This document shows, one piece after another, positions 3,675 through 58,364 of a stretch of DNA of 64,000 nt (positions are counted from its first letter, which is position 1; each line of letters starts with the position of its first letter). Where the stretch lies: the sequence record KC801932; one strand, 5' to 3'. Origin of the DNA: Escherichia phage Lw1. The position numbers and the translations under genes were made by a program. The notes under the pieces were generated by a model. It did not search any database and was not told the DNA's origin. It saw only the letters and a program-made list of their open reading frames with translations.

Positions 3675-3932
3675 TCATACAGGTCCGTGTCCAGCACCAT
3701 AACCAACAAGGGCATGTGCGATTTCGTGCATAAGAGTATCCAAAATGCAATCGTAGGTATCTTCTTCAACATGTTTCCGGCGTAACTGGATCTCTCTTTT
3801 GGAGTAACTGCAACAACCCAGAGTAGTTTTCAAACGTCCGTTAATTTTGAATGACCAATCAGACAAACCATGTTTAGCCATGATGCTTTTGGCCCAAAGA
3901 ATAATTTCCATGTCGCTACGAGTTTTGAACAT
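3675..3932 (-). CDS. SprT-like zinc metallopeptidase domain protein (N-terminal part)
   Basis: DTLMHEIAHALVGYGAGHG contains HExxH plus a downstream His; ends at TGA with the frame open beyond. Confidence 0.55.
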   Translation of the reverse strand: MFKTRSDMEIILWAKSIMAKHGLSDWSFKINGRLKTTLGCCSYSKREIQLRRKHVEEDTYDCILDTLMHEIAHALVGYGAGHGPV

Positions 3933-3959: not shown

Positions 3960-3993
3960 AATATAACAAAAAAGCCCCTGCTATGCAAGGGCT
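3960..3993 (-). promoter_or_regulatory. terminator hairpin with embedded promoter (-35 TTGCAT, 17 bp, -10 TATATT)
   Basis: minus-sense AAGCCCTTGCATAGCAGGGGCTTTTTTGTTATATT between gene 52 stop and the SprT-like ORF. Confidence 0.45.
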
Positions 3994-4002
3994 TGATGTA
4001 AA

Positions 4003-9940: not shown

Positions 9941-10007
9941 GGTAAATCTCCTTAGTTCGTTTCGATGGGGTAACTATATCAAAGTCGGTATTGCGATACA
10001 AGCAATT

Positions 10008-10226: not shown

Positions 10227-10451
10227 TTCCTCCCTTGTTTCGATGGGGTAACTATATCAAAGCTACCCCGTGAAGTCTTTAGCAAAAAGTGCTATGAGTG
10301 AAGCCAATTACCGATCGCAACAATAAAACTAGTGATGAATGGGGCATTACAGAAAAACAGTACCCCGTAATCACATTCCTTTATCTTAAAGTTGTTGTAT
10401 ACAAGATAAAGAAAATTAGCAAAGGCCCATAGTGAGAACACAGCGAAAAAT

Positions 10452-10670
10452 TCAACCATGATTCTCTACCAGTTTTCCCTGATACCACTTAGGAAACGTA
10501 ACGCGTTCAATCAGGGTTCTTGCCAGGTTATGACTATCACCGAAAAGGAGAACACCAAACAAAGGATCTCTCTTGATGTCGTTTTTCCCTACGGTTCTCA
10601 TATTGCCTTGATAAATCACGGTGTCGCCCACCGTGATATCTTTGATACTGACTTTTGTTACATTATACAT
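10452..10670 (-). CDS. hypothetical protein
   Basis: 72 aa. Confidence 0.45.
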   Translation of the reverse strand: MYNVTKVSIKDITVGDTVIYQGNMRTVGKNDIKRDPLFGVLLFGDSHNLARTLIERVTFPKWYQGKLVENHG

Positions 10671-10819: not shown

Positions 10820-10856
10820 GATGCGTTCCTTTTGTCTGTTTCGTTTCGATGTGTGT

Positions 10857-10900
10857 AATATACAAAAAAGCCCCCTGCATTGCAAGAGGCTTCTTTAGCA
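10857..10900 (-). promoter_or_regulatory. terminator hairpin with embedded promoter (-35 TTGCAA, 17 bp, -10 TATATT) plus conserved leader
   Basis: minus-sense hairpin followed by T-run after the 10911..11207 gene; leader 10825..10862 identical to 56214..56251. Confidence 0.5.
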
Positions 10901-10910
10901 AAAAGTGCTA

Positions 10911-11421: not shown

Positions 11422-11565
11422 CTATCGAGTAGCAAGAATGCGAAGCCATTCGCCCAACCAAACGATCGCCTCGTAGGACAACCATAATCCGATCGATACA
11501 ACTGAAATCATACCAATAATCGCAAATGCGAATACAACCTTAAATCCTTCTTTCAAATCAAACAT
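11422..11565 (-). CDS. small membrane protein
   Basis: 47-aa ORF absent from track (MFDLKEGFKVVFAFAIIGMISVVSIGLWL...); AAGAGGA before ATG. Confidence 0.4.
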   Translation of the reverse strand: MFDLKEGFKVVFAFAIIGMISVVSIGLWLSYEAIVWLGEWLRILATR

Positions 11566-11592: not shown

Positions 11593-11626
11593 AAAATAAC
11601 AAAACCCTTGCACGAATGCAAGGGTT
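11593..11626 (-). promoter_or_regulatory. terminator hairpin with embedded promoter (-35 TTGCAT, 17 bp, -10 TATTTT)
   Basis: minus-sense AACCCTTGCA-TTCG-TGCAAGGGTT after dexA, upstream of the 47-aa membrane ORF. Confidence 0.45.
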
Positions 11627-11630
11627 TTTA

Positions 11631-12302
11631 TTATCTTTTTCTCGGTAAACTCAGTTCGTCGGTTTCTTCTTCGGTCGGCGGTTCTTCCAACCCCATTGCA
11701 TAACGCATGGCATAGATCAGCATCAGCGCATCTTTTGCACAATCGTGAATTGAGTTGTGCATCACAAAACCATTTAGAATGCCTTTACGCAGAGGACAGG
11801 TTGAAGCCCCACGGGTCAACAGTCGGTTTTCAATGGCTGTACGCACATCACGACTATTCCAGAACACGGTCGGCATGTCGTCAAAGATGTCAATCTTTCC
11901 TATCATCTTACGTACCACATCAACCAGGATACCTCGATCGAATTCAGGGCCACGAACATAATCGAGGGATTGCCAACGGCTTACACCGTCTGCTTTCAAG
12001 TCCTCGAAAAACTGTTTATGTCCTTCGTACAGGTCGATATCATCAGGCGAAGGTTTCAGAATAGCACGGGCTTCTTCGCTTTGCTGTTTCCACCAATCAA
12101 TCGTTGATTTGTCAGCAATGCGATCCGGTTGCTTTTTCAAATCGAACTTATATTTTCTCCCCCGCGAAACCAGTTCCGCGAATGTTGGCGGGTTGTGGGG
12201 GTCGTCGATAAACGGAACGTAAGACAGTTCAACGAGTTTACCGTTTGGTGACGGGCCTACAGTTTCATAGTCCCATACGTAATCAACTGGAAGATGTGAC
12301 AT
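11631..12302 (-). CDS. dexA: exonuclease A (DEDDh 3'-5' exonuclease)
   Basis: 223 aa from ATG (MSHLPVDY); DYETVG and H-x4-D (HNSIHDCAKDA) motifs; near dda as in T4. Confidence 0.7.
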   Translation of the reverse strand: MSHLPVDYVWDYETVGPSPNGKLVELSYVPFIDDPHNPPTFAELVSRGRKYKFDLKKQPDRIADKSTIDWWKQQSEEARAILKPSPDDIDLYEGHKQFFEDLKADGVSRWQSLDYVRGPEFDRGILVDVVRKMIGKIDIFDDMPTVFWNSRDVRTAIENRLLTRGASTCPLRKGILNGFVMHNSIHDCAKDALMLIYAMRYAMGLEEPPTEEETDELSLPRKR

Positions 12303-15273: not shown

Positions 15274-15591
15274 TTAAATTAGGTTGTTGTTCCAGTTTTT
15301 ATACATGCTGCGATTATTGATCGCATCTTCGATATTTTCTTTGAATACAGCTACAAATTGTGCCTTTGTGATATCAAGAGGTAAATAATCGGCGGTTGTA
15401 TCGCAGTACGGCCCATATGCATAACAATCACTGGATCGCTCAACAAAGAAATATTCATTCATAAATTCGCTGATCTTTGGATTATCCTTAACGAATGCGC
15501 CGAACCCACACCATGCGCCCTCACCCTCATTAAGTCCTTTCAGGTAGTTGAATAATCCAACACTATCAATTTTATATTTTGCTTTAGCCAT
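15274..15591 (-). CDS. hypothetical protein
   Basis: 105 aa. Confidence 0.5.
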   Translation of the reverse strand: MAKAKYKIDSVGLFNYLKGLNEGEGAWCGFGAFVKDNPKISEFMNEYFFVERSSDCYAYGPYCDTTADYLPLDITKAQFVAVFKENIEDAINNRSMYKNWNNNLI

Positions 15592-15598
15592 AATTATC

Positions 15599-25081: not shown

Positions 25082-25394
25082 TACGTTTTTCTTTCTCCGC
25101 GTTTAATCGTATCAGAAATGATACACCAGCCAGCTTGATCAGATCAAGTGAACGCTGTGCAGAATCACGAAGGGTTTTATGTCCTTCAATCGAATTCAAC
25201 TGATTTACCAGCAGTGTATATTCATTCATGATACGTGTATAGAAATTGGGGAAGTAGTTCTGTGCGTAATTATAGGTACGCAGATCAGAGAGATTGCAAG
25301 TCAGAGACAGATCGATTTCGTCGCGGTGCAGACGGATAATCAAATGGTCGTCTGTTTTGAGAGATTTAAGAATTTCTTCAATACTAATTTTCAT
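25074..25394 (-). CDS. hypothetical protein
   Basis: 106 aa between regA and gene 43; overlaps gene 43 start. Confidence 0.5.
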   Translation of the reverse strand: MKISIEEILKSLKTDDHLIIRLHRDEIDLSLTCNLSDLRTYNYAQNYFPNFYTRIMNEYTLLVNQLNSIEGHKTLRDSAQRSLDLIKLAGVSFLIRLNAEKEKRND

Positions 25395-25431
25395 AATTTA
25401 GTCCTCACAATTGGTGTACAACCAATATAAC

Positions 25432-25465
25432 AAAGCCCTTGCATTTCTGCAAGGGCTTTTTGATT
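25432..25465 (-). promoter_or_regulatory. terminator hairpin with embedded promoter (-35 TTGCAG, 17 bp, -10 TATATT)
   Basis: minus-sense AAGCCCTTGCA-GAAA-TGCAAGGGCTT then TGTTATATT between regA and the ORF preceding gene 43. Confidence 0.45.
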
Positions 25466-25832
25466 AATGTCCGATCCGGTACTTGTATTTCAAAGTCCAT
25501 TCGGCTTTTTGTGCGTGGGTCAGTACGCGGAAGTTATTCTCTTCTGAGAATTTCAGATCCGGCGTAAGGATTTCGATCATTCCCCACTCTTCCAGAAGTC
25601 GCGCAATGTTGTTGCGGCGTAATTCGTCGTCTTCGGTCATGTCAACCTGGCGACCGTCCAGCCTCAAAAGTTCTTTGAAGTGTACGATAAAATAGCGCCC
25701 TTGCTTCTGTAAGATGTGGCAAGACTGCCACAGCATTTTCTTTTTATTGTTTGCGATCCCGATACGGGTTAGCGTTTCGCGAATTTTTAAAAAACTGTCG
25801 TCGCTGGACAGTTTGATTTCGAGCATGTTCAT
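25464..25832 (-). CDS. regA: RegA translational repressor
   Basis: 122 aa, same length as T4 RegA; ETLTRIGIANNKKKMLWQSCHILQK...HFKELLRLDGRQV parallels T4 RegA. Confidence 0.9.
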   Translation of the reverse strand: MNMLEIKLSSDDSFLKIRETLTRIGIANNKKKMLWQSCHILQKQGRYFIVHFKELLRLDGRQVDMTEDDELRRNNIARLLEEWGMIEILTPDLKFSEENNFRVLTHAQKAEWTLKYKYRIGH

Positions 25833-25835
25833 ATA

Positions 25836-26408
25836 TCACCATTTCTTTATTAATTGTTCAACCTTTTTCTGGTCGGTTTTATTTTTCACAACATCAGCCA
25901 ACACAGATATAGCAACTTTCATATTTTTCCGCTTCCACTCGTCCAGTTTTTCAAGCTGTTTGAGTTCTTCGTAATATTCCATTGCGATACGTGTATTTAC
26001 GCCATACCGTTTTTGGAGAACATGAAGGATAACTTTCATTTCGTTATCTTCGGTGAGTTTAGCCCACGCCCCGAACCGCTTACCTTTGCGCACCGTATGC
26101 AGGTAATAATCAAAGTGCGCCTGGTCAGGTAAACCGGAACCGATCATATTCATTGTGTATGCAGGGATCAGCGTTTCGATATGCTGGCTCATTGCATTGT
26201 CAATGAAATACTTGTCGTATGAATCAAGGCCAGAAATACGCAATGGTTTCTTTCCTGTATTCAATTCTTCGAGAACCATAAACAAGGTGTTTTCCTTGTC
26301 TTTGGTGTACTCTTTCACAAGCCCTTCGATCTTATCCCAGTCTTTAGAACGCCAGGCCGCTTCATGTTCGTTCAGTTCTTCTTCATCGAGAAAAGCAGCC
26401 AATGACAT
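25836..26408 (-). CDS. 62: clamp loader small subunit
   Basis: 190 aa (T4 gp62 187) between gene 44 and regA. Confidence 0.75.
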   Translation of the reverse strand: MSLAAFLDEEELNEHEAAWRSKDWDKIEGLVKEYTKDKENTLFMVLEELNTGKKPLRISGLDSYDKYFIDNAMSQHIETLIPAYTMNMIGSGLPDQAHFDYYLHTVRKGKRFGAWAKLTEDNEMKVILHVLQKRYGVNTRIAMEYYEELKQLEKLDEWKRKNMKVAISVLADVVKNKTDQKKVEQLIKKW

Positions 26409-34301: not shown

Positions 34302-35967
34302 GTATCAGAATATTCTGTCGGTAGGGAATACCCCGATCGAACTTGAATTCGATACTGCAAAGAAAACCCTGATCACGGGTAAAAATGGTGGTGGTAAATC
34401 CACACTGATCGAAGCGTTGACGTATGCTCTTTTTGGTAAGTCATTTCGTGATTTAAAAGTCGGGCAACTGGTAAACAGTGTCAACAAAAAGAAATGTCTG
34501 GTTGAACTGGATATTGAATACGGGAAAGATTCGTACAAAGTCGTTCGCGGACAAAAGCCGAAAGTATTCGAGATCTGGAAAAACGGTGATAAGTTAGCAG
34601 AAGATTCAGCAGCGGGTGATTATCAATCTCAGCTTGAATCCATGCTCAATATTAACCTGGTTGGATTCAAACAGGTAATCGTTTTGGGTACTGCTGGCTA
34701 TACTCCATTCATGGAACTGAAAACACCGGATCGCCGTAAACTGGTTGAAGACCTGTTGTCGCTATCGGTTATCAGTGAAATGGATAAGCTGAACAAATCA
34801 TATGTCCGTGGTGTTAATCAGCAGTTGGATACCCTGTCAATGCAGGTTAACCACATCCAGCAGCAGATCGCTACACACCAGCGCTTCATTGATGAACAGC
34901 GAGCTAAAGCGAACCAGAACAACGCACGATACAAAGAGATCTACGATAGCCACGTTGAAACCGCTAAGAATATCAAAGCACAGCTTATGCAGTTGCAAGC
35001 GGAGATCGCAGAAACGGTGATCACTGGCGCAGACCGAACGGAAGATATAAACAAACTCCGTGATGGATATACGCGCCTCTCTATGACTGTAGAACAGTTT
35101 AAAAAGCTGGAAGTGATGTATCAGAAAGGTGGTGAGTGTCCGGCCTGTAAACAGGCGATTACGCCCACTCCTGAACGCATGGAAGAGATCGCAAACAACA
35201 TCAAAGCGGGTACGCAACGATTAACGCTGATCAAAACCAAACAGGACGAGTTGCAAGGCATTATGAACGAGTTGCTTCAACAGCAACGCGCACTGAATGC
35301 TATGAAAACGAAATACGAAGCCCTGAAAGGTACGCTGCAAAATGAAGTTGCCAACGCTAAACGCGCACAAGCGATCATGGAACAGGCAAGCGCGGAAGTT
35401 GTTATTGATGAAGAACCTGTTAAGCAGTTGCAACAACAGGAAGCAGATCTGAACGATAAACGTCAAGGATATGTGAAAGAAAAATATATCCGTGGTATCG
35501 TTACAGATATGTTAAAAGATTCGGGTGTAAAAGCCAGCATCGTAAAACGTTATATCCCGTACTTCAACAAGCAGATCGCATACTATCTGGATCTGTTGGG
35601 CGCTGACTACCAGTTCACGTTAGATGATGAATTCAACGAATCAATCAAATCACTGGGGCGCGATGATTTTAGTTACGCATCATTTAGCCAGGGTGAACGC
35701 GCACGAATCAACTTATCGATTCTGTTTACATGGCGCGACGTAACAAGCAAAGTTTCCGGCGTGGACCTGTCTCTTCTGATTATGGACGAAGTTTTCGATA
35801 ACGCTCTTGATAAAGAAGGTGCGTTTGCTGTAGGGGCTGTTCTGAATGGTATTGATGGTAATATCATGGTGATTAGCCACAACGATTTAGACCCTGGTGA
35901 TTTCGATCGTCATATCGTCATGGCTAAATTGGGGCGCTTCTCGAAGATGGAAATCAAGAAGTCTTAA
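34276..35967 (+). CDS. 46: recombination endonuclease subunit (Rad50/SbcC-like ATPase)
   Basis: 563 aa; GTG start; Walker A GKNGGGKS, central coiled coil with CPAC zinc hook, C-terminal signature/Walker B. Confidence 0.9.
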   Translation: MKLNFKKIKYQNILSVGNTPIELEFDTAKKTLITGKNGGGKSTLIEALTYALFGKSFRDLKVGQLVNSVNKKKCLVELDIEYGKDSYKVVRGQKPKVFEIWKNGDKLAEDSAAGDYQSQLESMLNINLVGFKQVIVLGTAGYTPFMELKTPDRRKLVEDLLSLSVISEMDKLNKSYVRGVNQQLDTLSMQVNHIQQQIATHQRFIDEQRAKANQNNARYKEIYDSHVETAKNIKAQLMQLQAEIAETVITGADRTEDINKLRDGYTRLSMTVEQFKKLEVMYQKGGECPACKQAITPTPERMEEIANNIKAGTQRLTLIKTKQDELQGIMNELLQQQRALNAMKTKYEALKGTLQNEVANAKRAQAIMEQASAEVVIDEEPVKQLQQQEADLNDKRQGYVKEKYIRGIVTDMLKDSGVKASIVKRYIPYFNKQIAYYLDLLGADYQFTLDDEFNESIKSLGRDDFSYASFSQGERARINLSILFTWRDVTSKVSGVDLSLLIMDEVFDNALDKEGAFAVGAVLNGIDGNIMVISHNDLDPGDFDRHIVMAKLGRFSKMEIKKS

Positions 35968-36664
35968 ACTTACAGTTGTCAAAATGCCATCGTTTCATAT
36001 TGGTGGCATCACCAACTTTAGCGCAATGGGGGCAAGTTAATTGCTCCCTTTTCTTTTGTATTTTTCTGTCTGGGTTCTTGGTACAATATGGAATATGACT
36101 GTTCAAGTAATGCACTGTCGATTCTGTACCACAATGAGGACAAGAACCGCGCTCCGATACTACGTTTCTGTTTTTATGTGCTCGCATGACTCCTGCAAAT
36201 GCATTCACTTTCCCTTCATTGCCTGGCTTGTTCTTGCAGTTGTCGAAGTGCCAGCGGTTCATATTACCTACTAAGCCGGACGTATTGCAATGAGGACACG
36301 TAACCCTGTTCTGTTGAAGTTTGGCCTGTCTCATGCGTAAGCGTGTCTCTTCGCTGAACTCTTTTTGTTTCTGGGCTTCAAGTGCTTTTTCTTTTAACCA
36401 TCCATAGCGGCGGTTTGCTGTACGCGCAGACGATCGAGAAGTGCCGACTGTAAGCATGTTAGCAGCATAAATTAGTTTATGGTTGCCTGGATACATCTTA
36501 ACCAATAGCAGATGTGCTATGAAATGTTGACGTGCTGACAGTTCAACCAGATTTTCGGGATCGTCCGATCCTCCCATACATTTTGGAACGATGTGGTGTT
36601 TCTCTTTGTACTCTGCATCCGTTCCGGCAGTCATGAGTTGTTCGTAAATCTTATGATAATTCAT
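35954..36664 (-). CDS. HNH homing-endonuclease-like protein with three C-terminal zinc-finger repeats
   Basis: 236 aa; HNH core HHIVPKCMGGSDDPENLVELSARQHFIAH; three copies of CPHC-x12-14-(R/K)WHFDNCK; opposite strand to flanking genes. Confidence 0.8.
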   Translation of the reverse strand: MNYHKIYEQLMTAGTDAEYKEKHHIVPKCMGGSDDPENLVELSARQHFIAHLLLVKMYPGNHKLIYAANMLTVGTSRSSARTANRRYGWLKEKALEAQKQKEFSEETRLRMRQAKLQQNRVTCPHCNTSGLVGNMNRWHFDNCKNKPGNEGKVNAFAGVMRAHKNRNVVSERGSCPHCGTESTVHYLNSHIPYCTKNPDRKIQKKREQLTCPHCAKVGDATNMKRWHFDNCKFKTS

Positions 36665-36712
36665 GATGATAAACCCTGTTTGATAGTCCGTTAGATACCC
36701 CTATTTAGGAAC

Positions 36713-38725: not shown

Positions 38726-38739
38726 ATGAGGAAAATACT

Positions 38740-39066
38740 ATGAGTTGTCCAACATGGGCGCATTTTGAAAATTTGAAAGAAGGTACGCAGAAACGCGTGT
38801 ATATCAATTTGGGTTGGATTCCACCAACTGATTTTGAATTAGCCGTAATAATGGTTAATGCCAGCAAAGAGATCAGCGAAACTTTCGAATGGGAAAGACT
38901 TACTTTGCCTGTTCATCCAGGGTTCTTTATGGCCCGTGAAAAGTTCGAAGAAATGAAACGAGCGGTAGAATGTATCAATGGGTTGACTACGCCATCTTTA
39001 CGTATGCACTACCGGAACCTATTCACCCTGAAAAAAGCATGGGAAATCGCGGAGGTTGAATTATGA
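38740..39066 (+). CDS. hypothetical protein
   Basis: 108 aa from ATG (MSCPTWAHF) after GAGGAAAA. Confidence 0.5.
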   Translation: MSCPTWAHFENLKEGTQKRVYINLGWIPPTDFELAVIMVNASKEISETFEWERLTLPVHPGFFMAREKFEEMKRAVECINGLTTPSLRMHYRNLFTLKKAWEIAEVEL

Positions 39067-41032: not shown

Positions 41033-43282
41033 ATGAGTGATATTAAAACAGTAGTAAAATCCTCTGGTGTAAGTCAACCATTCGACAAAGAAAAACTGTT
41101 TAAAGTCCTGAACTGGGCCAGTGTTGGAAAGAATATTGATGTTAACGCATTCCTTGAAAGTGTCGTTGACCTGCTTCGTGACGGTATGACTACCAAACAG
41201 ATCCAGGGCGTAGCTATCAAGTATGCAGCGGATCGCATTTCAGTAAAAGAACCTGACTGGCAGTATGTAGCGGCTAACCTCGAAATGTTCGCCCTTCGTA
41301 AAACCGTTTACGGGCAATTTGACCCGATCCCATTCTACGAACACATCACTAAGCTGGTTGAGGCTGGAAAATACGACAAAGAGATCCTAACCAAATGGAC
41401 TAAATCTGATATCGAATATTTCGAAGAGAACATTAAGCACGATAAAGATTTCGAGTTCTCTTACGCTGGTGTTCAGCAGTTGATCGGGAAATATCTGTTG
41501 CAGGATCGCACAAACGGTGACATCTACGAAACCCCGCAATACGCTTTCATGCTGATTGCTATGTGTCTGCATCAGGACGAACCGCGAACCCTGAGCGCAT
41601 TTAATCATGTGGTTGATTTCTACAACGCAATTTCGGATCGTAAGCTGTCGTTACCTACGCCTATTATGGCTGGTGTGCGTACTCCTACGCGTCAGTTTTC
41701 CAGTTGCGTAGTGATTGAATCAGGTGATTCACTGGGTTCTCTGAATGCTGTAACCTCTGCGATCGTGAAGTATATTTCACAACGTGCTGGTATCGGTGTA
41801 AACGCCGGACATATTCGCGCGATGGGTTCTAAAATCCGTGGTGGTGAAGCAGTTCATACAGGCGTGATCCCGTTCTGGAAACATATTCAGACAGCGGTTA
41901 AATCCTGTTCACAAGGTGGTGTTCGTGGTGGTGCTGCAACGTTGTATTATCCGATCTGGCATTTGGAAGTTGAAAACCTGCTGGTTCTGAAAAACAACAA
42001 AGGTGTTGAAAACAACCGTATCCGTCACCTGGATTATGGCGTACAGCTTAACGATTTGATGTATAAACGTTTGATGAATAACGATTACATCACTCTGTTC
42101 AGCCCTGATGTTGCTAACGATCGTCTGTATGATGCGTTCTATCAAGCGGATCAGACTGAATTCGAAGAACTGTATACCAGCCTTGAAAAAGACCCGACTG
42201 TACGCAAGAAACGTATTAAAGCGGTAGATCTGTTCCAGTTGCTTGCACAGGAACGCGCACAGACTGGACGCAAATATATTTTCAACAGTCATCACGTCAA
42301 TCAGCAGGGTAGTTTCTCTGTTCCGGTTCGTATGTCGAACCTTTGCTGTGAAATTGCGATCCCTACAAGTCCTCTGGATGACGATGATAAACTGGCTGGC
42401 GAAATTGGACTGTGTACGCTTATGGCTATCGTTCTCGATAATGCCGATATAAGCGAATTTCCGGCCCTTACGCGCATTGCAGTACGCGCACTGGATAACT
42501 TGCTGGATTACCAGAATTATCCTGTTGCAGCGGCACTGAAAGCTAAACAGCGTCGTTCTCTGGGTGTTGGTATCACCAACTATGCTTCGTGGCTGGCAAG
42601 TAACTATTGCGACTACTCAGAAGCATACGCCGGAAACGTTCATGAACTGATGGAAGCGTTTCAATATAACTTGTTGGTTGCCTCTATGGAACTGGCAAAA
42701 GAACGCGGCGCGTGTGGACTGTTCCACGAAACAAAATATTCACAGGGACTGTTACCGATCGATTGGTACTGCAAGAACGTTGATGAACTCGCATCACCTG
42801 TGTATAACTGCGACTGGGAATGGTTGCGTGGTGAAATCAAAAAATACGGCTTGCGTAACTCAACGCTTTCTGCTTTAATGCCATGTGAGAGTAGTTCTCA
42901 AGTAAGTAACTCCACAAACGGTATTGAACCGCCTCGCGGCCCTGTGAGTGTGAAATCTTCGAAGGAAGGTTCATTTAACCAGGTAGTTCCGAACCATAAT
43001 GACCAGATTGATTTCTATGATTATCTCTGGACAATGGCTAAACGCGGTAACAAAGGTTATCTGTCTCATGTTGCTGTTATGCAGAAGTTTGTTGACCAGG
43101 CTATCTCTGCAAACACCGACTATGATCCGGCTAACTATGCTGATGGTAAAGTTCCGACTGAGGAAATCTTAGATGACCTCCTGTACGCGAACTATTTCGG
43201 TGTTAAAACACTGTATTACCACAACACCCGCGATGGTGCTGGTGAAGATGAAGCGGAAGATTGCGAAGGTTGCAAGATTTGA
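41033..43282 (+). CDS. nrdA: ribonucleotide reductase alpha subunit (class Ia)
   Basis: 749 aa; N-terminal ATP-cone, catalytic NLCCEI-type cysteines, C-terminal CEGCK pair. Confidence 0.95.
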   Translation: MSDIKTVVKSSGVSQPFDKEKLFKVLNWASVGKNIDVNAFLESVVDLLRDGMTTKQIQGVAIKYAADRISVKEPDWQYVAANLEMFALRKTVYGQFDPIPFYEHITKLVEAGKYDKEILTKWTKSDIEYFEENIKHDKDFEFSYAGVQQLIGKYLLQDRTNGDIYETPQYAFMLIAMCLHQDEPRTLSAFNHVVDFYNAISDRKLSLPTPIMAGVRTPTRQFSSCVVIESGDSLGSLNAVTSAIVKYISQRAGIGVNAGHIRAMGSKIRGGEAVHTGVIPFWKHIQTAVKSCSQGGVRGGAATLYYPIWHLEVENLLVLKNNKGVENNRIRHLDYGVQLNDLMYKRLMNNDYITLFSPDVANDRLYDAFYQADQTEFEELYTSLEKDPTVRKKRIKAVDLFQLLAQERAQTGRKYIFNSHHVNQQGSFSVPVRMSNLCCEIAIPTSPLDDDDKLAGEIGLCTLMAIVLDNADISEFPALTRIAVRALDNLLDYQNYPVAAALKAKQRRSLGVGITNYASWLASNYCDYSEAYAGNVHELMEAFQYNLLVASMELAKERGACGLFHETKYSQGLLPIDWYCKNVDELASPVYNCDWEWLRGEIKKYGLRNSTLSALMPCESSSQVSNSTNGIEPPRGPVSVKSSKEGSFNQVVPNHNDQIDFYDYLWTMAKRGNKGYLSHVAVMQKFVDQAISANTDYDPANYADGKVPTEEILDDLLYANYFGVKTLYYHNTRDGAGEDEAEDCEGCKI

Positions 43283-43287
43283 TTAAT

Positions 43288-43307
43288 GCCCCTTCGGGGG
43301 CTTTTAT
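43288..43307 (+). terminator. intrinsic terminator (GCCCC-TTCG-GGGGC + T-run)
   Basis: after nrdA stop. Confidence 0.65.
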
Positions 43308-43318
43308 AAGGTAAACTC

Positions 43319-44494
43319 ATGTTAACAGTAATGAACACAAACCCCGAACACAAACACTTAGAACAGCCGATGTTCTTCGGTGAGGATACGGGGGTTGCCC
43401 GATATGAAGAACAAAAACACAGTGTATTTGAAAAGCTGACTGAAAAACAACTGTCATTCTTCTGGCGACCGGAAGAAGTGGATCTGTCGATTGACCGTAT
43501 GCAGTATGCGAAAATGCCGGAACATGAAAAAATCATTTTCGATTCTAACCTGCAATATCAAACCCTACTGGATACCATTCAGGGACGCGGCCCTAACCTT
43601 GCATTTCTCCCGATTGCCTCTGATGTATCAATGGAAACGTGGATCGAAACATGGGCGTTCAGTGAAACAATTCACAGTCGCAGTTATACGCACATTCAGC
43701 GCAACCTGCATATCGATCCGGCTAAAGAGTTCGACAAAATCCTTCGTAACGAAGCGATCATGAAACGTTCTGCATCAATGACCAGTTATTACGATAACTT
43801 GATCAGCGAATGTCATGAACTGAAAAACATCGTTCTCAAGATCGAAATGATGACATCCCACGGATACCCAGACGAATCGATCGCTGAATACGAACAGAAA
43901 CGCAAAGAGCAAATGCGCAAATGTAAGGTTGCTCTTTATCTGTGTATGCACGCTGTCAACGCTCTGGAAGCGATTCGTTTCTATGTCTCGTTTACCTTTA
44001 CGTTCAACTTTGCCGAACAGGGCAAGATGGAAGGTAACGCAAAGATCATGCGTCTGATTGCCCGTGATGAAGCACTTCATCAGAAAGGTACTCAAAGCAA
44101 GATCCGACTCTGGCAGATGGGTAAAGATGACCCAGAAATGGCAGAAATCGCGTATCAGTACGAAGAAGAAGCAACACAGATTTTCCTCGAAGTTTACGAG
44201 CAGGAAAAAGAATGGGCTGAACACTTATTCAGTATTGGTGATGTTGACGGCGTGACACTGAAAAGTACAATCGCCTATATCGAACACTTAACCGACCAAC
44301 GTATGCGAGCGGTTGGGTTACAGTCTCCGTTTAAACCGAGTCCTAACCCGTATCCGTGGATGAACAAATGGTTGAAGTCTGACAACGTTCAGGTAGCCCC
44401 GCAAGAGGTTGAAGTAAGTTCTTACCTGGTTGGCAACCTCAACACTGAGATCAGCGACGAAGCCTATGCAAAATGGCGACAAAAATACGCTTGA
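43319..44494 (+). CDS. nrdB: ribonucleotide reductase beta subunit
   Basis: 391 aa, uninterrupted; di-iron/tyrosyl radical region (ETWAFSETIHSRSYTHI). Confidence 0.95.
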   Translation: MLTVMNTNPEHKHLEQPMFFGEDTGVARYEEQKHSVFEKLTEKQLSFFWRPEEVDLSIDRMQYAKMPEHEKIIFDSNLQYQTLLDTIQGRGPNLAFLPIASDVSMETWIETWAFSETIHSRSYTHIQRNLHIDPAKEFDKILRNEAIMKRSASMTSYYDNLISECHELKNIVLKIEMMTSHGYPDESIAEYEQKRKEQMRKCKVALYLCMHAVNALEAIRFYVSFTFTFNFAEQGKMEGNAKIMRLIARDEALHQKGTQSKIRLWQMGKDDPEMAEIAYQYEEEATQIFLEVYEQEKEWAEHLFSIGDVDGVTLKSTIAYIEHLTDQRMRAVGLQSPFKPSPNPYPWMNKWLKSDNVQVAPQEVEVSSYLVGNLNTEISDEAYAKWRQKYA

Positions 44495-44777
44495 TTGTCG
44501 CGTCGTAAACAAGTATAAAGGTAACTGGGATGTCGATATTCAAAGAGGTACGAAGTTCGGCAATCCCTTTTACAAGGGAACACGGGGTGAAAACATTCTT
44601 AACTTCATCCCGTATTTCCAAAACTTGATTCGAACTGGCGTGATCACAATCGACGAACTGAAAGAACTGGACGGGAAGCGGTTAGGCTGTAGTTGCAAAC
44701 CCTTACCGTGTCACGGTGATTATATTGCTCACTGCGTCAATGTGTTGACCGGAAAGGTGAATAAGTTGGATATATAA
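44466..44777 (+). CDS. DUF4326-like small protein (GNPF and CSCKPLPCHGD motifs)
   Basis: about 103 aa from first in-frame ATG of track ORF; start overlaps nrdB 3' end; family assignment from memory. Confidence 0.5.
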   Translation: MQNGDKNTLDCRVVNKYKGNWDVDIQRGTKFGNPFYKGTRGENILNFIPYFQNLIRTGVITIDELKELDGKRLGCSCKPLPCHGDYIAHCVNVLTGKVNKLDI

Positions 44778-45175
44778 TGGACGATGTAACGTTTGGTGTA
44801 ATATTTCCTTTGCGTCTGGGTTCAGACAAAAGGATAGATCGGAGTTTTGTTAAATGTGGTGAATTCCGGCATTGTGTATATTTTATTGAAATCGACGGTC
44901 GGATAGTGTATGTTGGCAAGTGTCGTGATTTGTGGAAGCGGTTAGACACATACCGCAATTCGAAATACTGGCGGGAAGCAAACCCCAGTAACATTTTGAA
45001 AACCGCACGTCTGGAAATGGCAATCAAAAAAGGTAAACGTGTAAATCTTATCGTGACAACACACGACGAAAGCACGTATCACGATTTTGAAATCAACATG
45101 ATCCGAAAAATTAATCCTGAATGGAACAAACAGCACTATGACAAATCTAACCAAAAATCAGAAAACCCTCTTTGA
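44777..45175 (+). CDS. denA: endonuclease II (GIY-YIG)
   Basis: 132 aa (T4 DenA 136); GIY-YIG-like VYFIEIDGRIVYVGK; follows nrdB as in T4. Confidence 0.6.
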   Translation: MDDVTFGVIFPLRLGSDKRIDRSFVKCGEFRHCVYFIEIDGRIVYVGKCRDLWKRLDTYRNSKYWREANPSNILKTARLEMAIKKGKRVNLIVTTHDESTYHDFEINMIRKINPEWNKQHYDKSNQKSENPL

Positions 45176-54664: not shown

Positions 54665-56165
54665 ACTTGCATCGACTCTGAAAACCTCAGAGAAGGAAGC
54701 AATTTTAAAACGTAATGCAAACAACCTATTGTTGAAAGAGATTTTCCGAATTACGTACACAAAACAGATTATGTTCTATGTGCGTAAGTTTCCCCAGGTG
54801 GACGGCAAACCAGGAACAACCCCGCTATCAAATGCAATCGCGGACCTGATGTCCGATTTAGCATCGCGGAAGTATACAGGTAATGCAGCCCGCGATCGCC
54901 TGATGGATATTGTGTCATCAGTAAACGAGAACGATCGCGAAGTGTTGCGCCGTATCATTAACCGCGATCTTGAATGTGGTGCGGGTACAACTCTGCCAAA
55001 CCGCGTATGGAAGAAACTTATTCCAGAACAGCCTCAATGCCTCGCTACGCCGTTTAGTGAAAAAGCCTTAAAACGTATTCGCTTCCCTGCTTACTCTCAG
55101 CTTAAAGCCGATGGTGCGCGTTGTATGTCGGATCTGTTAGAAGACCAGATTCGCAAAGCAACCCGCGCGGGAAATGAGTATACAGGTTTGGTTGATCTGG
55201 ATAAGGATTTGAAAAAGATCCGCGAATATCTGGGTTATGATGTTGTGCTGGATGGAGAATTGATTTATGTCCCTGGTGGAAAATCCGTTGAAGTTCCTGT
55301 GTCTCCTGTTACGTTTAGCCTTGCTGGGTTTATGGGCGATGACGATGATTCTGTTACTGACTTTGTGGCTGATGTTAGGCGGGAAGCCACCGAGGGAGAA
55401 AAACAGGAAGAGGCGAAACGCGAAGAAGGAAACGGAATCGTAAACAAATCCCTGAAAGGCACTATCAGCGACGAAGAACAACAGAACATCGTTTATGTTG
55501 TCTGGGACATCATACCGTATGAAGTTTATTATGGTGATGCTCCGAGTGTTCAGCCTTACAAAGATCGCTTGTCTATCCTTGATGGTGTTATCGCTGGCAC
55601 TGGTGTAACATCGGTTCAGTTGATTCCTTCTATCCTGGTGCAAACCATCGCGGAAGCAAAACAGGATTACAACAATTACCGCAATGACGGTAAAGAGGGT
55701 TCAATCCTGAAAAACGTTGATTTCGTCTGGAAGGATTCACGCGTTGCGGATCAGGTTAAGTTGAAGAACAAAACCCCGATCGAACTACGAATCATCGACG
55801 TATACGCGCACACCAAAGAACCTCATAAGGTCGGCGGGTTTGTTGTTGAGGACTTATCAGGAGAAGCCAGGACGAACACAGGTTCCGGTTTAACTGATAC
55901 AGACTACCGTTACGATGAAGACGGTGTTACCCGCGTGTATATCCCGTTAGACGAACGTGGAGAACTGGATCGCGAGTATATCATGACGAACAAAGATGAC
56001 TATATTGGCGCTATCGTCGAAATGGAAGTTGACGGACTCCAGAAGTCTAAAACGCGTAAGAAGGGCGAACCTGAATACAGTTTCTTCTTGCCAATCATCA
56101 AGAAGATTCGACGCGATAAGACGGAACCTGATGATATTCATGTGGTTTTTGCCGATCTGTTTTAA
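54642..56165 (+). CDS. 30: ATP-dependent DNA ligase
   Basis: 507 aa; N-terminus MILSILNELAS parallels T4 gp30; adenylation motif LKADGARC. Confidence 0.9.
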   Translation: MILSILNELASTLKTSEKEAILKRNANNLLLKEIFRITYTKQIMFYVRKFPQVDGKPGTTPLSNAIADLMSDLASRKYTGNAARDRLMDIVSSVNENDREVLRRIINRDLECGAGTTLPNRVWKKLIPEQPQCLATPFSEKALKRIRFPAYSQLKADGARCMSDLLEDQIRKATRAGNEYTGLVDLDKDLKKIREYLGYDVVLDGELIYVPGGKSVEVPVSPVTFSLAGFMGDDDDSVTDFVADVRREATEGEKQEEAKREEGNGIVNKSLKGTISDEEQQNIVYVVWDIIPYEVYYGDAPSVQPYKDRLSILDGVIAGTGVTSVQLIPSILVQTIAEAKQDYNNYRNDGKEGSILKNVDFVWKDSRVADQVKLKNKTPIELRIIDVYAHTKEPHKVGGFVVEDLSGEARTNTGSGLTDTDYRYDEDGVTRVYIPLDERGELDREYIMTNKDDYIGAIVEMEVDGLQKSKTRKKGEPEYSFFLPIIKKIRRDKTEPDDIHVVFADLF

Positions 56166-56184
56166 ATAGCACTTTTTGTTTAAA

Positions 56185-56219
56185 AAGCCCTTGCATACGT
56201 GCGAGGGCTTTGTTATATT
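56185..56219 (+). promoter_or_regulatory. terminator hairpin with embedded promoter (-35 TTGCAT in stem, 17-bp spacer, -10 TATATT)
   Basis: AAAGCCCTTGCA-TACG-TGCGAGGGCTTT hairpin after ligase; -10 begins the 38-nt leader that recurs identically at 10825..10862. Confidence 0.5.
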
Positions 56220-56256
56220 ACACACATCGAAACGAAACAGACAAAAGGAACATCCC

Positions 56257-56529
56257 ATGCAAATCACTAAAGAACTCGAAGGCAAAGTAATCAACCTGAC
56301 ATACCGTGCGCGTTTTGAAAAACTGGCTAATGGTGGCGAATCTTTGGGTGAAGCGGTAGCGTTATTCGAAAGACTTCGGGTTAAACGTGTTGTTGATGGT
56401 TGGGTTATTGCTCTCCCTGTTGCAGATGAAGATAAAGCAGTATATGACCCAGTTGCCGATTCATGGGATATTGAAATCTGTTTAGTTAACGTTGAAGTAG
56501 AACTTTGCTTCGAAGAAGAAAATAATTGA
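56257..56529 (+). CDS. hypothetical protein
   Basis: 90 aa from ATG (MQITKELEG) after AAGGAA; track N-terminus is translated leader. Confidence 0.5.
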   Translation: MQITKELEGKVINLTYRARFEKLANGGESLGEAVALFERLRVKRVVDGWVIALPVADEDKAVYDPVADSWDIEICLVNVEVELCFEEENN

Positions 56530-56596
56530 AATAGTTCTTGTATTGTGTGTAGGGTAGTGTGGTATCTTACACACATCGGAACAAAGGAGAGACACC

Positions 56597-57264: not shown

Positions 57265-58364
57265 GCCTCGCTTGTTTTGCTGTTATCGTTAGTCGCAGCA
57301 GCCACCTGTACACATTCCAATGTTTGCAGGTGGAAATCTTTTGATACGTCACGGATACATTCAACGATCAAATACTTACCCGCGTATTCATCCCCCAACA
57401 CTTCAATCATCCCCCCTACTTTAACATCCATTCGACCCTGATTAATATCAAACTTAATCCGTTTTTCATAACCGGACAGTAACTGACATTTAACCGCCTG
57501 GAATGGCTGGCCTTGTTTGTCGGGGTTCTGGAAGTTGGTATTGTATACCGCGTTCCGGTTCATTGTGATCCACGCGTTTTCAACGTCTGTACTTGCGAGT
57601 ATATCGCTGTATAACTTCTTGTCAGTCATCGAGAAACTAAAGAAACTTGCATCCCCTAACAGGGTAGTGTTATCCTTATACGTAATGTATTCAGCTTTCG
57701 TGAATACCAAAGAATCACCTAAAAACGGATTGCTTACGTTATACTTGTAAGCCTTTAACGGGGTTTGTGCTAGGATCTCCGTATTGCTTCGCATAAAGAT
57801 ACCGGAACCATCTTCCCACAAATAACAGAAGTCTGACGAATCAACGCTCTGACCGTTATCCCTTATGTAATCAAACACGGTTTCATACGTCCCGCTTAAA
57901 CATGCCGGAGGTATACGCACGTTTGAAGCATCAATGGTCGGGGTAATCAGCTTCATATCGTTGTATAGTGCCGTCATACACTCTGTAATCGTCTGTACGG
58001 CGTTATTACTGAATGAACGGGAGAACTTACGACGAAATACCGTATGCACCGGAGAAAGGTTTAGGCGCAATATAGAACGGTTCATATCATCGGTTTCGAC
58101 GTTCGAATACAGAACACCATAGTAATGCTGTTCCAACGTCTGATTATACTTGAAAGATACCTGAATAATTGGTTTCTCTGTCAACTGATAGATTAACTGG
58201 TTATCGTAGATCTGCATCAATGTTTCAGAAGTACCGTTGATAATAGTTTTCTCACTCATTGAGACAAGGGCAGGTAGCAATTCAAGATAGACGTTATCCG
58301 CAAACTTTTCATATGTTGGATATAATTTAACCGATACAATACGGTTTATAACTTTATTGGACAT
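57261..58364 (-). CDS. 27: baseplate hub subunit (gp27-like)
   Basis: 367 aa; N-terminal SVKLYPTYEKFADNVYLELLPAL and C-terminal region resemble T4 gp27 as recalled; divergent to gp28-gp54. Confidence 0.55.
   Translation of the reverse strand: MSNKVINRIVSVKLYPTYEKFADNVYLELLPALVSMSEKTIINGTSETLMQIYDNQLIYQLTEKPIIQVSFKYNQTLEQHYYGVLYSNVETDDMNRSILRLNLSPVHTVFRRKFSRSFSNNAVQTITECMTALYNDMKLITPTIDASNVRIPPACLSGTYETVFDYIRDNGQSVDSSDFCYLWEDGSGIFMRSNTEILAQTPLKAYKYNVSNPFLGDSLVFTKAEYITYKDNTTLLGDASFFSFSMTDKKLYSDILASTDVENAWITMNRNAVYNTNFQNPDKQGQPFQAVKCQLLSGYEKRIKFDINQGRMDVKVGGMIEVLGDEYAGKYLIVECIRDVSKDFHLQTLECVQVAAATNDNSKTSEA

What the first reader, a model, noticed from the sequence alone, without database searches (positions are those of the whole stretch)
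25432..25465. Recurring module: stable hairpin with a -35 element in its stem, followed 17 bp later by TATATT
At five or more junctions (about 3960..3993, 10857..10900, 11593..11626, 25432..25465 on the minus strand; 56185..56219 on the plus strand) a GC-rich hairpin of the form AAGCCCTTGCA-loop-TGCAAGGGCTT ends an upstream gene. The same sequence supplies TTGCA(T/A/G) at the -35 position of a downstream -10 hexamer. One element therefore reads as a terminator in RNA and a promoter in DNA, giving compact re-initiation units throughout the early region.
Basis: partly seen in the sequence, partly recalled or inferred. Interest (0 to 1): 0.5.

Follow-up and report, generated by a model that had tools for sequence, protein, structure and literature searches.

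The report
Known phage terminator–promoter cassettes (PeSLs)
Five short gaps between genes in this T4-related phage each carry a stable hairpin that should stop the upstream transcript and that also holds part of the promoter for the next gene. This is real, but it is the already published "PeSL" design of T4-like phages.

Summary
The window is an RB16-like Pseudotevenvirus (88-99% identical to RB16 by block). It holds exactly five intergenic modules: 3960-3994, 10857-10897, 11593-11628 and 25424-25461 on the minus strand, and 56184-56219 on the plus strand. In each, a stable hairpin (-16 to -23 kcal/mol) starts 2-18 nt after a stop codon and carries TTGCA(T/A/G) in its 5' arm. A TAT(A/T)TT hexamer follows exactly 17 nt later, then a leader, a Shine-Dalgarno sequence and an ATG.

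Across 23 distinct modules from the RB43 group, CTTG and the -10 stay at a fixed distance while the hairpin register and T-run vary. That argues for a promoter constraint layered on a terminator.

Such composites were published as PeSLs (Arbiol 2010; Comeau 2014), including the stem-loop-over-the-35 subclass. In RB43, Nolan 2006 predicted an early promoter and a terminator at overlapping coordinates at all five homologous junctions.

The window also shows PeSL-style shuffling. denV is missing, with a hybrid promoter joined inside the -10 box. Function in this phage is inferred, since no transcript-end data were found. Interest is low.

The parts
25424..25461 (-). Focal composite module, in the regA to ORF (upstream of g43) intergenic region. 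It runs from the A-tract and hairpin through the -10 hexamer.
   Evidence: Orthologs are nearly invariant in 12 relatives.
25432..25459 (-). Terminator-type hairpin AAAGCCCTTGCA-gaaa-TGCAAGGGCTTT (12 bp, loop GAAA at 25447-25444)
   Evidence: Fold of -22.6 kcal/mol, z -4.8. Homologous position annotated 'terminator' in CfP1 and called by TransTerm in RB43.
25447..25452 (-). -35-like hexamer TTGCAG, lying in the 5' arm and first loop base
   Evidence: Exactly 17 nt upstream of TATATT. CTTG is invariant in 23 modules.
25424..25429 (-). -10 hexamer TATATT, preceded by TGT (an extended -10 TGn). It lies inside the terminator's U-rich tail.
25392..25406 (-). Shine-Dalgarno GAGGA (25406-25402) and ATG (25394-25392) of the downstream 106-aa ORF
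25464..25466 (-). Stop codon of regA, 2 nt before the A-tract of the hairpin
3960..3994 (-). Composite module between gp52 (stop 4005-4003) and a SprT-like ORF (ATG 3932-3930). Hairpin AAGCCCTTGC-ata-GCAGGGGCTT, -35 TTGCAT 3988-3983, -10 TATATT 3965-3960.
   Evidence: RB16 has a different hairpin variant here with the same 17-nt frame.
10857..10897 (-). Composite module. Hairpin TAAAGAAGCCTCTTG-caatg-CAGGGGGCTTTTTTG, -35 TTGCAA 10885-10880, -10 TATATT 10862-10857. It is a hybrid of two RB43 promoters joined within GTATATTAC, where RB43 carries denV.
11593..11628 (-). Composite module after dexA (stop 11633-11631). Hairpin AAAACCCTTGCA-ttcg-TGCAAGGGTTTT, -35 TTGCAT 11621-11616, -10 TATTTT 11598-11593, downstream ATG 11565-11563.
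   Evidence: Shows a G-C to A-U compensatory pair relative to RB43.
56184..56219 (+). Composite module after DNA ligase gp30 (stop 56163-56165). Hairpin AAAGCCCTTGCA-tacg-TGCGAGGGCTTT, -35 TTGCAT 56191-56196, -10 TATATT 56214-56219, downstream ATG 56257-56259.
10825..10856 (-). Shared transcribed leader ACACACATCGAAACGAAACAGACAAAAGGAAC. The same 32 nt occur at 56220-56251 (+). Related leaders occur at 9956-9984 and 10234-10262 (-) and at 56560-56590 (+).
   Evidence: families D4, D9, D12; 89-nt cross-match at 88.8%
10892..10910 (-). Shared upstream block TAGCACTTTTTGCTAAAGA. It also occurs at 10294-10276 (-) and, as a variant, at 56167-56187 (+).
10245..10269 (-). Related cassette of another subclass. 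The stem GGGGTA...TACCCC encloses an extended -10 (TGATATAGT) and has no hairpin over the -35.
   Evidence: read from sequence
56545..56574 (+). Related cassette. The stem GTGTGTA...TACACAC encloses TGGTATCTT (-10).
   Evidence: read from sequence

Best explanation
These are PeSL-type (promoter-early stem-loop) intergenic cassettes of a T4-related phage. Each is one roughly 70-95 bp unit serving two neighbouring early genes.

Proposed mechanism:
- In the RNA made from the upstream gene, the GC-rich hairpin followed by UUUGUUAUAUU acts as an intrinsic terminator or attenuator, and as a 3' end stabiliser.
- In the DNA, the same bases are read by host sigma-70 RNA polymerase. The A-tract of the 5' arm falls at -44 to -40 (UP-like). 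CTTGCA in the 5' arm is the -35. The 3' arm fills the 17-nt spacer. The T-run supplies TGn plus TATATT.
- Transcription restarts about 7 nt downstream of the -10 and runs through a short conserved leader with an SD into the next gene.
- Stopping upstream polymerases just before the promoter insulates it from read-through and sets expression gene by gene.

Because many junctions carry near-identical cassettes, they also act as homology patches where genes are lost, gained or swapped.

What is shown: anatomy, stability, the fixed promoter frame, conservation, and a recombination joint. What is inferred: actual termination and initiation in this phage.
For: Existence and non-randomness. Hairpin stability.

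Specific coupling of TTG and the -10: of six gene-strand terminator-like hairpins in the window with TTG in the 5' arm, five have TAnnnT at exactly 17 nt.

Fixed promoter frame: in 23 distinct modules from the RB43 group, CTTG and the T, A and T of the -10 are invariant. The spacer is 17 nt in 21 modules and 18 nt in 2. The hairpin centre moves between 5.0 and 6.5 nt from TTG and the T-run changes length.

RNA-level structure: the sense fold is more stable than the antisense fold in 21 of 23 modules (mean -18.8 vs -15.3 kcal/mol), with 26 G.U wobbles. In the same-register subset 99.2% of cells are paired.

Conservation: the focal junction is nearly invariant in 12 relatives whose flanks are about 90% identical.

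Recombination joint: a hairpin-less canonical promoter in RB43 (TTGACC-17-TATATT) recombined with the hairpin module exactly in the shared GTATATTAC to give the window's 10857 module. This shows that hexamer is used as a -10.

Published support:
- RB43 early-promoter HMM hits and TransTerm terminators overlap at all five homologous junctions: Pe:4005 with term 3977-3995, Pe:11463 with 11434-11454, Pe:12201 with 12170-12191, Pe:26374 with 26343-26364, and Pe:57694 with 57704-57725.
- CfP1 depositors annotated terminators at the four minus-strand junctions retrieved.
- PeSLs with stem-loops overlapping the -35 or lying between the -35 and -10 are described, with lacZ evidence for promoter and terminator activity in RB49/phi1. 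PeSL-like sequences are noted in the RB43 g43 locus.
Against: - No 5' or 3' transcript-end data for this phage or genus were found, so function rests on analogy.
- The -35 matches TTGACA at only 3-4 of 6 positions. A generic sigma-70 scan flagged only one of the four modules in the first 20 kb.
- In three modules the U-tract is interrupted (UUUGUUAUAUU), so termination may be partial.
- The hairpin core alone is a common plain terminator in unrelated phages, so TTGC in a stem is not by itself evidence of a -35.
- Formal covariation is weak: one two-sided change, and 46 of 500 shuffles did as well.
Confidence: 0.8

Rival explanations
1. These are plain intrinsic terminators only. The TTG in the stem and the TATATT in the T-rich tail resemble promoter elements by accident, and the downstream genes are expressed by read-through or from other promoters.
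For: The same hairpin core occurs as a bare terminator in many unrelated viral contigs. One hairpin in the window (51372) contains TTGC but has no -10. The -35 match is only 3-4 of 6, and the generic scan missed most of the modules.
Against: CTTG and the -10 are invariant at 17 nt in 21 of 23 modules, despite shifting hairpin register and T-run length. The -10 is interchangeable with that of a canonical TTGACC-17-TATATT promoter at the denV joint. A fixed leader, SD and ATG follow each module. Nolan's early-promoter HMM scores these sites 17.6-25.4, towards the top of the RB43 scores seen in the retrieved passages.
Confidence: 0.08
2. The inverted repeat is an operator. A dimeric phage or host DNA-binding protein binds the palindrome over the -35 and spacer to switch early promoters off or on, and the RNA hairpin is incidental.
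For: Palindromes overlapping the -35 and spacer are typical operator positions (general knowledge). The elements are restricted to early-gene junctions.
Against: Arm sequences differ between variants, for example GCCC/GGGC, GCCTC/GAGGC and GCCCC/GGGGC. Loop length varies from 3 to 6, so half-site spacing and register are not conserved. Pairing is asymmetric: 26 G.U wobbles favour the sense strand, which would be A.C mismatches of dyad symmetry on the other strand. No candidate binding protein was identified.
Confidence: 0.04
3. Their main role is as recombination substrates (mobile regulatory cassettes). Regulatory activity is secondary, and the repeats persist because they promote gene shuffling or mini-circle formation.
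For: The denV indel is joined inside the -10 of two flanking promoters. The ORF020c indel lies directly upstream of the 11593 module. Window and RB43 homology breaks at the next cassette after 56185. Hairpin variants are swapped between this window and RB16 at orthologous junctions within 96-99% identical flanks. PeSL mini-circles have been reported.
Against: This does not exclude the regulatory model. The focal regA module has no adjacent gene-content change in 12 relatives and is under strong conservation, which recombination alone does not explain. Several other window-versus-RB16 indels are homing-endonuclease genes with no module beside them.
Confidence: 0.08

Closest known systems
PeSLs (promoter-early stem-loops) of coliphages RB49/phi1 (Arbiol, Comeau & Krisch 2010, PMC2839356)
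   Same: An intergenic cassette made of stop codon, A/T-rich region, sigma-70-like -35 and -10 at about 17 nt, a stable stem-loop overlapping the promoter, SD and ATG. It is repeated through early and hyperplastic regions and found next to indels between close relatives. The subclass with the stem-loop overlapping the -35 or lying between the -35 and -10 is explicitly described.
   Different: RB49 stems are G(n)-loop-C(n) and its -35 is a near-perfect TTGACA. Here the stem is AAGCCCTTGCA/TGCAAGGGCTT and the -35 is TTGCAN. In this window a single placement dominates, with the 5' arm over the -35. Activity was measured in RB49/phi1 and not here.
PeSLs of T4/PST and KVP40/nt-1 (Comeau, Arbiol & Krisch 2014, PMC4122927)
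   Same: Composite terminator/promoter motifs that differ in sequence between T4-like lineages. The nt-1/KVP40 promoter consensus TTGYVH-N17-TAWWAT fits TTGCAT-17-TATATT exactly.
   Different: In PST the stem-loop lies just upstream of the promoter rather than containing the -35. The stem sequences are different (A3-4G3...C3T3-4 in nt-1).
Predicted RB43 early promoters and TransTerm terminators (Nolan et al. 2006, PMC1524935)
   Same: Orthologous junctions. A promoter and a terminator are both predicted at overlapping coordinates for all five. The paper notes C or G at -36, G at -33 and an A-rich -40 to -44, which equals AAAAAGCCCTTG.
   Different: The overlap was not discussed as a composite element. 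The main text has zero mentions of hairpin or stem-loop.
Lambdoid 'morons' (a gene with its own promoter and terminator)
   Same: Small genes bracketed by their own transcription signals and gained or lost as units.
   Different: In morons the signals are separate, are not conserved repeats and are not thought to mediate mobility (discussed). Here one overlapping element is shared by two neighbouring genes.
Quasipalindrome template-switch inversions (known mutational mechanism; from my own knowledge, not tested here)
   Same: Precise reverse-complement replacement of a hairpin loop between perfect arms, as at 25444-25447 (GAAA versus TTTC).
   Different: This concerns only the loop polymorphism, not the function of the element.

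Membership tests
PeSL (promoter-early stem-loop cassette) | Lies in the intergenic gap between the stop codon of one gene and the SD and ATG of the next gene on the same strand | tested here: met
   All five. Stop to hairpin is 2-18 nt, and -10 to ATG is 27-37 nt.
PeSL (promoter-early stem-loop cassette) | Sigma-70-like -35 and -10 boxes about 17 nt apart | tested here: met
   TTGCA(T/A/G)-17-TAT(A/T)TT in 5 of 5 window modules. The spacer is 17 nt in 21 of 23 modules in the RB43 group. The -35 match to TTGACA is only 3-4 of 6.
PeSL (promoter-early stem-loop cassette) | [quoted passage not shown] | tested here: met
   An A-tract at -44 to -40 in four modules (AAAAAG, AAAAA or AAAGAAG) and TTTACATCAA in the fifth. 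This matches the A-rich -40 to -44 noted for RB43.
PeSL (promoter-early stem-loop cassette) | A stable stem-loop adjacent to or overlapping the promoter boxes | tested here: met
   -16.4 to -22.6 kcal/mol, z -3.5 to -6.6. The 5' arm covers the -35 and the 3' arm lies in the spacer.
PeSL (promoter-early stem-loop cassette) | Repeated in the genome and associated with insertions, deletions or replacements between close relatives | tested here: met
   Five copies, plus related cassettes sharing upstream and leader blocks. There is a denV indel with the joint in the -10, an ORF020c indel, and swapped hairpin variants relative to RB16. No genome-wide statistical test was done.
PeSL (promoter-early stem-loop cassette) | Measured promoter and terminator activity; mini-circle formation | not testable with these tools
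   Shown only for RB49/phi1 by lacZ fusions and inverse PCR.
Rho-independent (intrinsic) terminator | GC-rich stem, short loop, and an immediately following U-rich tract on the transcribed strand at the end of a gene | tested here: met
   The scan flags the 3994, 11628 and 10889 hairpins. My own census lists all five. In three modules the U-tract is interrupted (TTTGTTATATT).
Sigma-70 promoter with extended -10 | TGn immediately upstream of the -10 hexamer | tested here: met
   TGT-TATATT or TGT-TATTTT in four of five. The 10857 module has TTG-TATATT, so TGn is not met there.
Any curated RNA family (Rfam 15) | Match at the gathering score | tested here: not met
   0 matches in the whole window.

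The most novel reading that the evidence does not exclude
The cassettes may be dynamic as well as regulatory. Their near-perfect palindromes may undergo frequent template-switch inversions and exchange between copies in vivo. Loop flips would then rewrite the last base of the -35 (TTGCAT to TTGCAG at the regA junction), and hairpin variants would be swapped between junctions, giving a built-in way to vary early-promoter strength and gene content. In addition, the same hairpin-over-the-35 layout has arisen in unrelated myovirus lineages: Flavobacterium-phage-like contigs, and distant T4-like contigs with TTGACA in the loop. That would point to a general design rule for compact phage early regions.
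Probability: 0.2. Interest if true: 0.4.

Novelty: already known. Interest (0 to 1): 0.15.

Why it matters
The finding gives a correct reading of how early genes are punctuated in this phage. It helps annotation, because promoter and terminator calls should be allowed to overlap. It also adds a base-resolution example (the denV joint inside the -10 box) to the published idea that these cassettes mediate gene shuffling in T4-like phages. It does not open a new question, since both the element class and its orthologs in RB43 are already in the literature.

Tried and rejected
- Rfam scan of the whole window: no family matched.
- Generic sigma-70 scan: total promoter-like hits were no more than in shuffles (42 vs 38.2), and it flagged only one of four modules because TTGCAT scores 3 of 6. 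It was not useful for this promoter type.
I used those only to show that the architecture is widespread, and fetched close orthologs one by one instead.
- Covariation statistics on the same-register subset: the copies are too similar. There was one two-sided change, and 46 of 500 shuffles did as well. The hairpin case therefore rests on stability, persistence across divergent variants and strand asymmetry.
- My automated tail-length against hairpin-centre correlation was confounded by extended outer pairs (r=0.08). The compensation is stated from inspection of the alignment only.
- Operator/palindrome reading: rejected because of the floating register and the G.U asymmetry.
- MotA-type middle promoter reading of the TGCTT at about 10003: rejected because the spacing to the -10 is too long (read).
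- Search for transcript-end mapping in Pseudotevenvirus: nothing found.

Full report
**Identity of the window.** A 3-kb segment around the finding is 99.3% identical to Escherichia phage RB16 and about 90% identical to RB43, CfP1 and many Cronobacter, Klebsiella, Enterobacter and Citrobacter phages. All belong to Straboviridae, genus Pseudotevenvirus. Along its length the window is 88-98% identical to RB16, with several indels, so it is an RB16-like relative and not RB16 itself. The focal site lies between regA and the small ORF upstream of DNA polymerase gene 43.

**Observation.** Reading the five sites confirms the description.

| Module | Strand | Hairpin | -35 | -10 |
|---|---|---|---|---|
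| 3960 | - | 3994-3972 | TTGCAT 3988-3983 | TATATT 3965-3960 |
| 10857 | - | 10897-10863 | TTGCAA 10885-10880 | TATATT 10862-10857 |
| 11593 | - | 11628-11601 | TTGCAT 11621-11616 | TATTTT 11598-11593 |
| 25424 (focal) | - | 25459-25432 | TTGCAG 25452-25447 | TATATT 25429-25424 |
| 56185 | + | 56184-56211 | TTGCAT 56191-56196 | TATATT 56214-56219 |

The spacer is exactly 17 nt in all five. A degenerate pattern gives 9 hits against 2.2 expected, with 0 of 100 shuffles as high. A structural scan returns the same five as the only intergenic, gene-oriented cases. As RNA the hairpins fold at -16.4 to -22.6 kcal/mol, with z from -3.5 to -6.6. Each begins 2-18 nt after a stop codon (gp52, a small ORF, dexA, regA, DNA ligase). 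Each is followed by a short leader, a Shine-Dalgarno sequence and an ATG on the same strand.

**Is the promoter reading more than a T-rich tail?** Four lines of evidence say yes.

1. In the window, six gene-strand terminator-like hairpins have TTG in the 5' arm. Five of them have TA...T exactly 17 nt away. The sixth (51372) is a plain terminator. Hairpins without TTG show no such coupling.
2. I collected 23 distinct modules from this window, RB16, RB43, CfP1 and RB43-like IMG/VR contigs. MAFFT aligns them essentially without internal gaps. CTTG and the T, A and T of the -10 are invariant columns. The spacer is 17 nt in 21 modules and 18 nt in 2. Meanwhile the loop length (3-6), the hairpin centre (5.0-6.5 nt after TTG) and the T-run (3-6 T) all vary. 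The hairpin floats inside a fixed promoter frame.
3. In RB43, denV is flanked upstream by the hairpin module and downstream by a conventional TTGACC-17-TATATT promoter. The window lacks denV and has one hybrid. It matches the upstream module for 56 nt, up to ...TTTGTATATTAC, and then matches the downstream promoter's leader. The crossover therefore lies inside the shared 9-nt GTATATTAC. So the hexamer of the hairpin module is interchangeable with the -10 of an ordinary promoter.
4. The A-tract of the 5' arm falls at -44 to -40, and C precedes TTG at -36. These are the features Nolan et al. reported for RB43 early promoters.

**Is the hairpin an RNA-level feature?** The sense-strand fold is more stable than the antisense fold in 21 of 23 modules (mean -18.8 vs -15.3 kcal/mol), because of 26 G.U wobbles. 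This asymmetry, the varied arm sequences and the varied loop lengths all argue against a symmetric protein-binding operator. Formal covariation is weak because the copies are so similar. In the same-register subset 99.2% of cells are paired, but there is only one two-sided change (G-C to A-U at the 11593 module) and four wobble-only pairs, and 46 of 500 shuffles did as well. The focal junction is nearly invariant across 12 relatives whose flanking genes are about 90% identical. No Rfam family matches.

**What is known.** The design is published as the PeSL.
- Arbiol et al. 2010 described composite sigma-70-like early promoters plus stem-loops in RB49/phi1. They listed five subclasses by stem-loop position, including overlap with the -35 and placement between the -35 and -10. 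lacZ assays showed strong promoter activity and terminator strength comparable to rrnB T1. They also noted PeSL-like sequences in the RB43 g43 locus.
- Comeau et al. 2014 extended PeSLs to T4/PST and KVP40/nt-1. The nt-1 consensus, TTGYVH-N17-TAWWAT, fits TTGCAT-17-TATATT.
- For RB43, Nolan et al. 2006 list an early-promoter HMM hit and a TransTerm terminator at overlapping coordinates at all five homologous junctions.
- CfP1's depositors annotated terminators at the four minus-strand junctions I retrieved.

No transcript-end mapping for this genus was found, so function here is inferred.

**Recombination aspect.** This is the second half of the PeSL concept, and the window illustrates it.
- denV is absent, with a hybrid joint in its place.
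- RB43's ORF020c is absent immediately upstream of the 11593 module.
- RB16 and the window carry different hairpin variants at the gp52 and 10.8-kb junctions inside 96-99% identical flanks, while keeping TTGCA(T/A)-17-TATA(T/G)T.
- At the ligase junction RB43 has yet another variant (TTGCGT-17-TATTGT), and window-RB43 homology breaks at the next cassette.
- The 10857 and 56185 copies share about 89 nt, including an upstream block and a 32-nt leader.

Not all indels involve modules. Several are homing-endonuclease genes.

**Breadth.** The bare hairpin core is a common terminator in unrelated viral contigs, so the stem sequence alone is not diagnostic. The composite layout does recur elsewhere. 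After regA in distant T4-like contigs, TTGAC(A/C) sits inside the hairpin with TATAAT at 17 nt, for example in L162, L165, L172 and L141. It also recurs in multiple copies in AT-rich contigs related to Flavobacterium myoviruses.

**Verdict.** The features are real and correctly interpreted. They belong to a known class, and their orthologs were already predicted as both promoter and terminator. Interest is low. The side observations (loop flips, the hybrid joint in the -10) are modest additions.

Noticed in passing
window 25444-25447 (minus strand loop GAAA): The 4-nt loop of the focal hairpin is the exact reverse complement of the loop in RB16, RB43 and CfP1 (TTTC). Eight other relatives share GAAA. 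The window otherwise matches RB16 base for base here, so the flip is recent and does not track flank similarity. It changes the -35 from TTGCAT to TTGCAG. A second flip pair (GTAA/TTAC) is seen between L057 and RB16 (L069) at another junction.
   Followed up: partly
window 10857-10865 (minus); RB43 L002 10835-11475: denV (endonuclease V) is present in RB43 and CfP1 between two early promoters, but is absent from this window and from the same junction in RB16. The window retains a single hybrid promoter whose crossover lies within GTATATTAC. tblastn finds no denV anywhere in the 64 kb.
   Followed up: yes
window 11629-11633; RB43 L002 12198-12479: RB43 and CfP1 have an extra yqbP-like ORF (ORF020c) between dexA and the 11593 module. 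It is absent here and in RB16.
   Followed up: partly
window 10292-10468 (minus): A 171-bp segment absent from RB16 encodes a 55-aa hydrophobic ORF (10459 to 10292). It is bounded by TCAT(G/A)G microhomology and abuts the shared block CATAGCACTTTTTGCTAAAGA.
   Followed up: partly
window 3675-3677 (minus): The HEIAH-motif (SprT-like) ORF downstream of the 3960 module has an in-frame stop at codon 86, where RB43 has Trp. The 180-aa gene is therefore split into 85-aa and 88-aa ORFs.
   Followed up: partly
window 15275-15596, ~34286, 35940-36712, 38731-39062, 43280-43319, 44490-44834: Further differences from RB16. There are two extra segments and two replaced segments. Two of RB16's putative homing-endonuclease genes (RB16 1 and 3) are absent. 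These indels were not checked for flanking modules.
   Followed up: no
window 10245-10269 (minus) and 56545-56574 (plus): A second cassette subclass, in which a stem (GGGGTA...TACCCC or GTGTGTA...TACACAC) encloses an extended -10 (TGATATAGT or TGGTATCTT) rather than covering the -35.
   Followed up: no
window 10825-10856 (minus), 56220-56251 (plus); related at 9956-9984, 10234-10262, 56560-56590: A conserved transcribed leader, ACACACATCGAAACGAAACAGACAAAAGGAAC (core CATCGAAAC), is shared by several early cassettes with and without the hairpin. It also occurs in IMG/VR relatives (L057, L115). Its role is unknown: it could be a translation signal, a processing signal or just homology.
   Followed up: no
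loci L063, L065, L074, L064, L047, L050 and others (IMG/VR): AT-rich contigs related to Flavobacterium phage vB_FspM_immuto carry the same hairpin core followed by TAT(A/C)TT at 17-18 nt, with two or three copies in several contigs, in front of small ORFs. This looks like an independent lineage with the same composite design. The spacing would also suit a Bacteroidetes-type TTG/TAnnTTTG promoter (my inference).
   Followed up: partly
loci L162, L186, L165, L172, L141, L149 (IMG/VR, after regA): In distant T4-like contigs, TTGAC(A/C) sits in the loop or arm of a terminator hairpin right after regA, followed by a T-run and TATAAT, CATAAT or TATAAA at 17 nt.
   Followed up: partly
window 11601-11628: This hairpin has A- and T-tracts on both sides and is called as a terminator on both strands by the scan. 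No converging gene requires that here.
   Followed up: no
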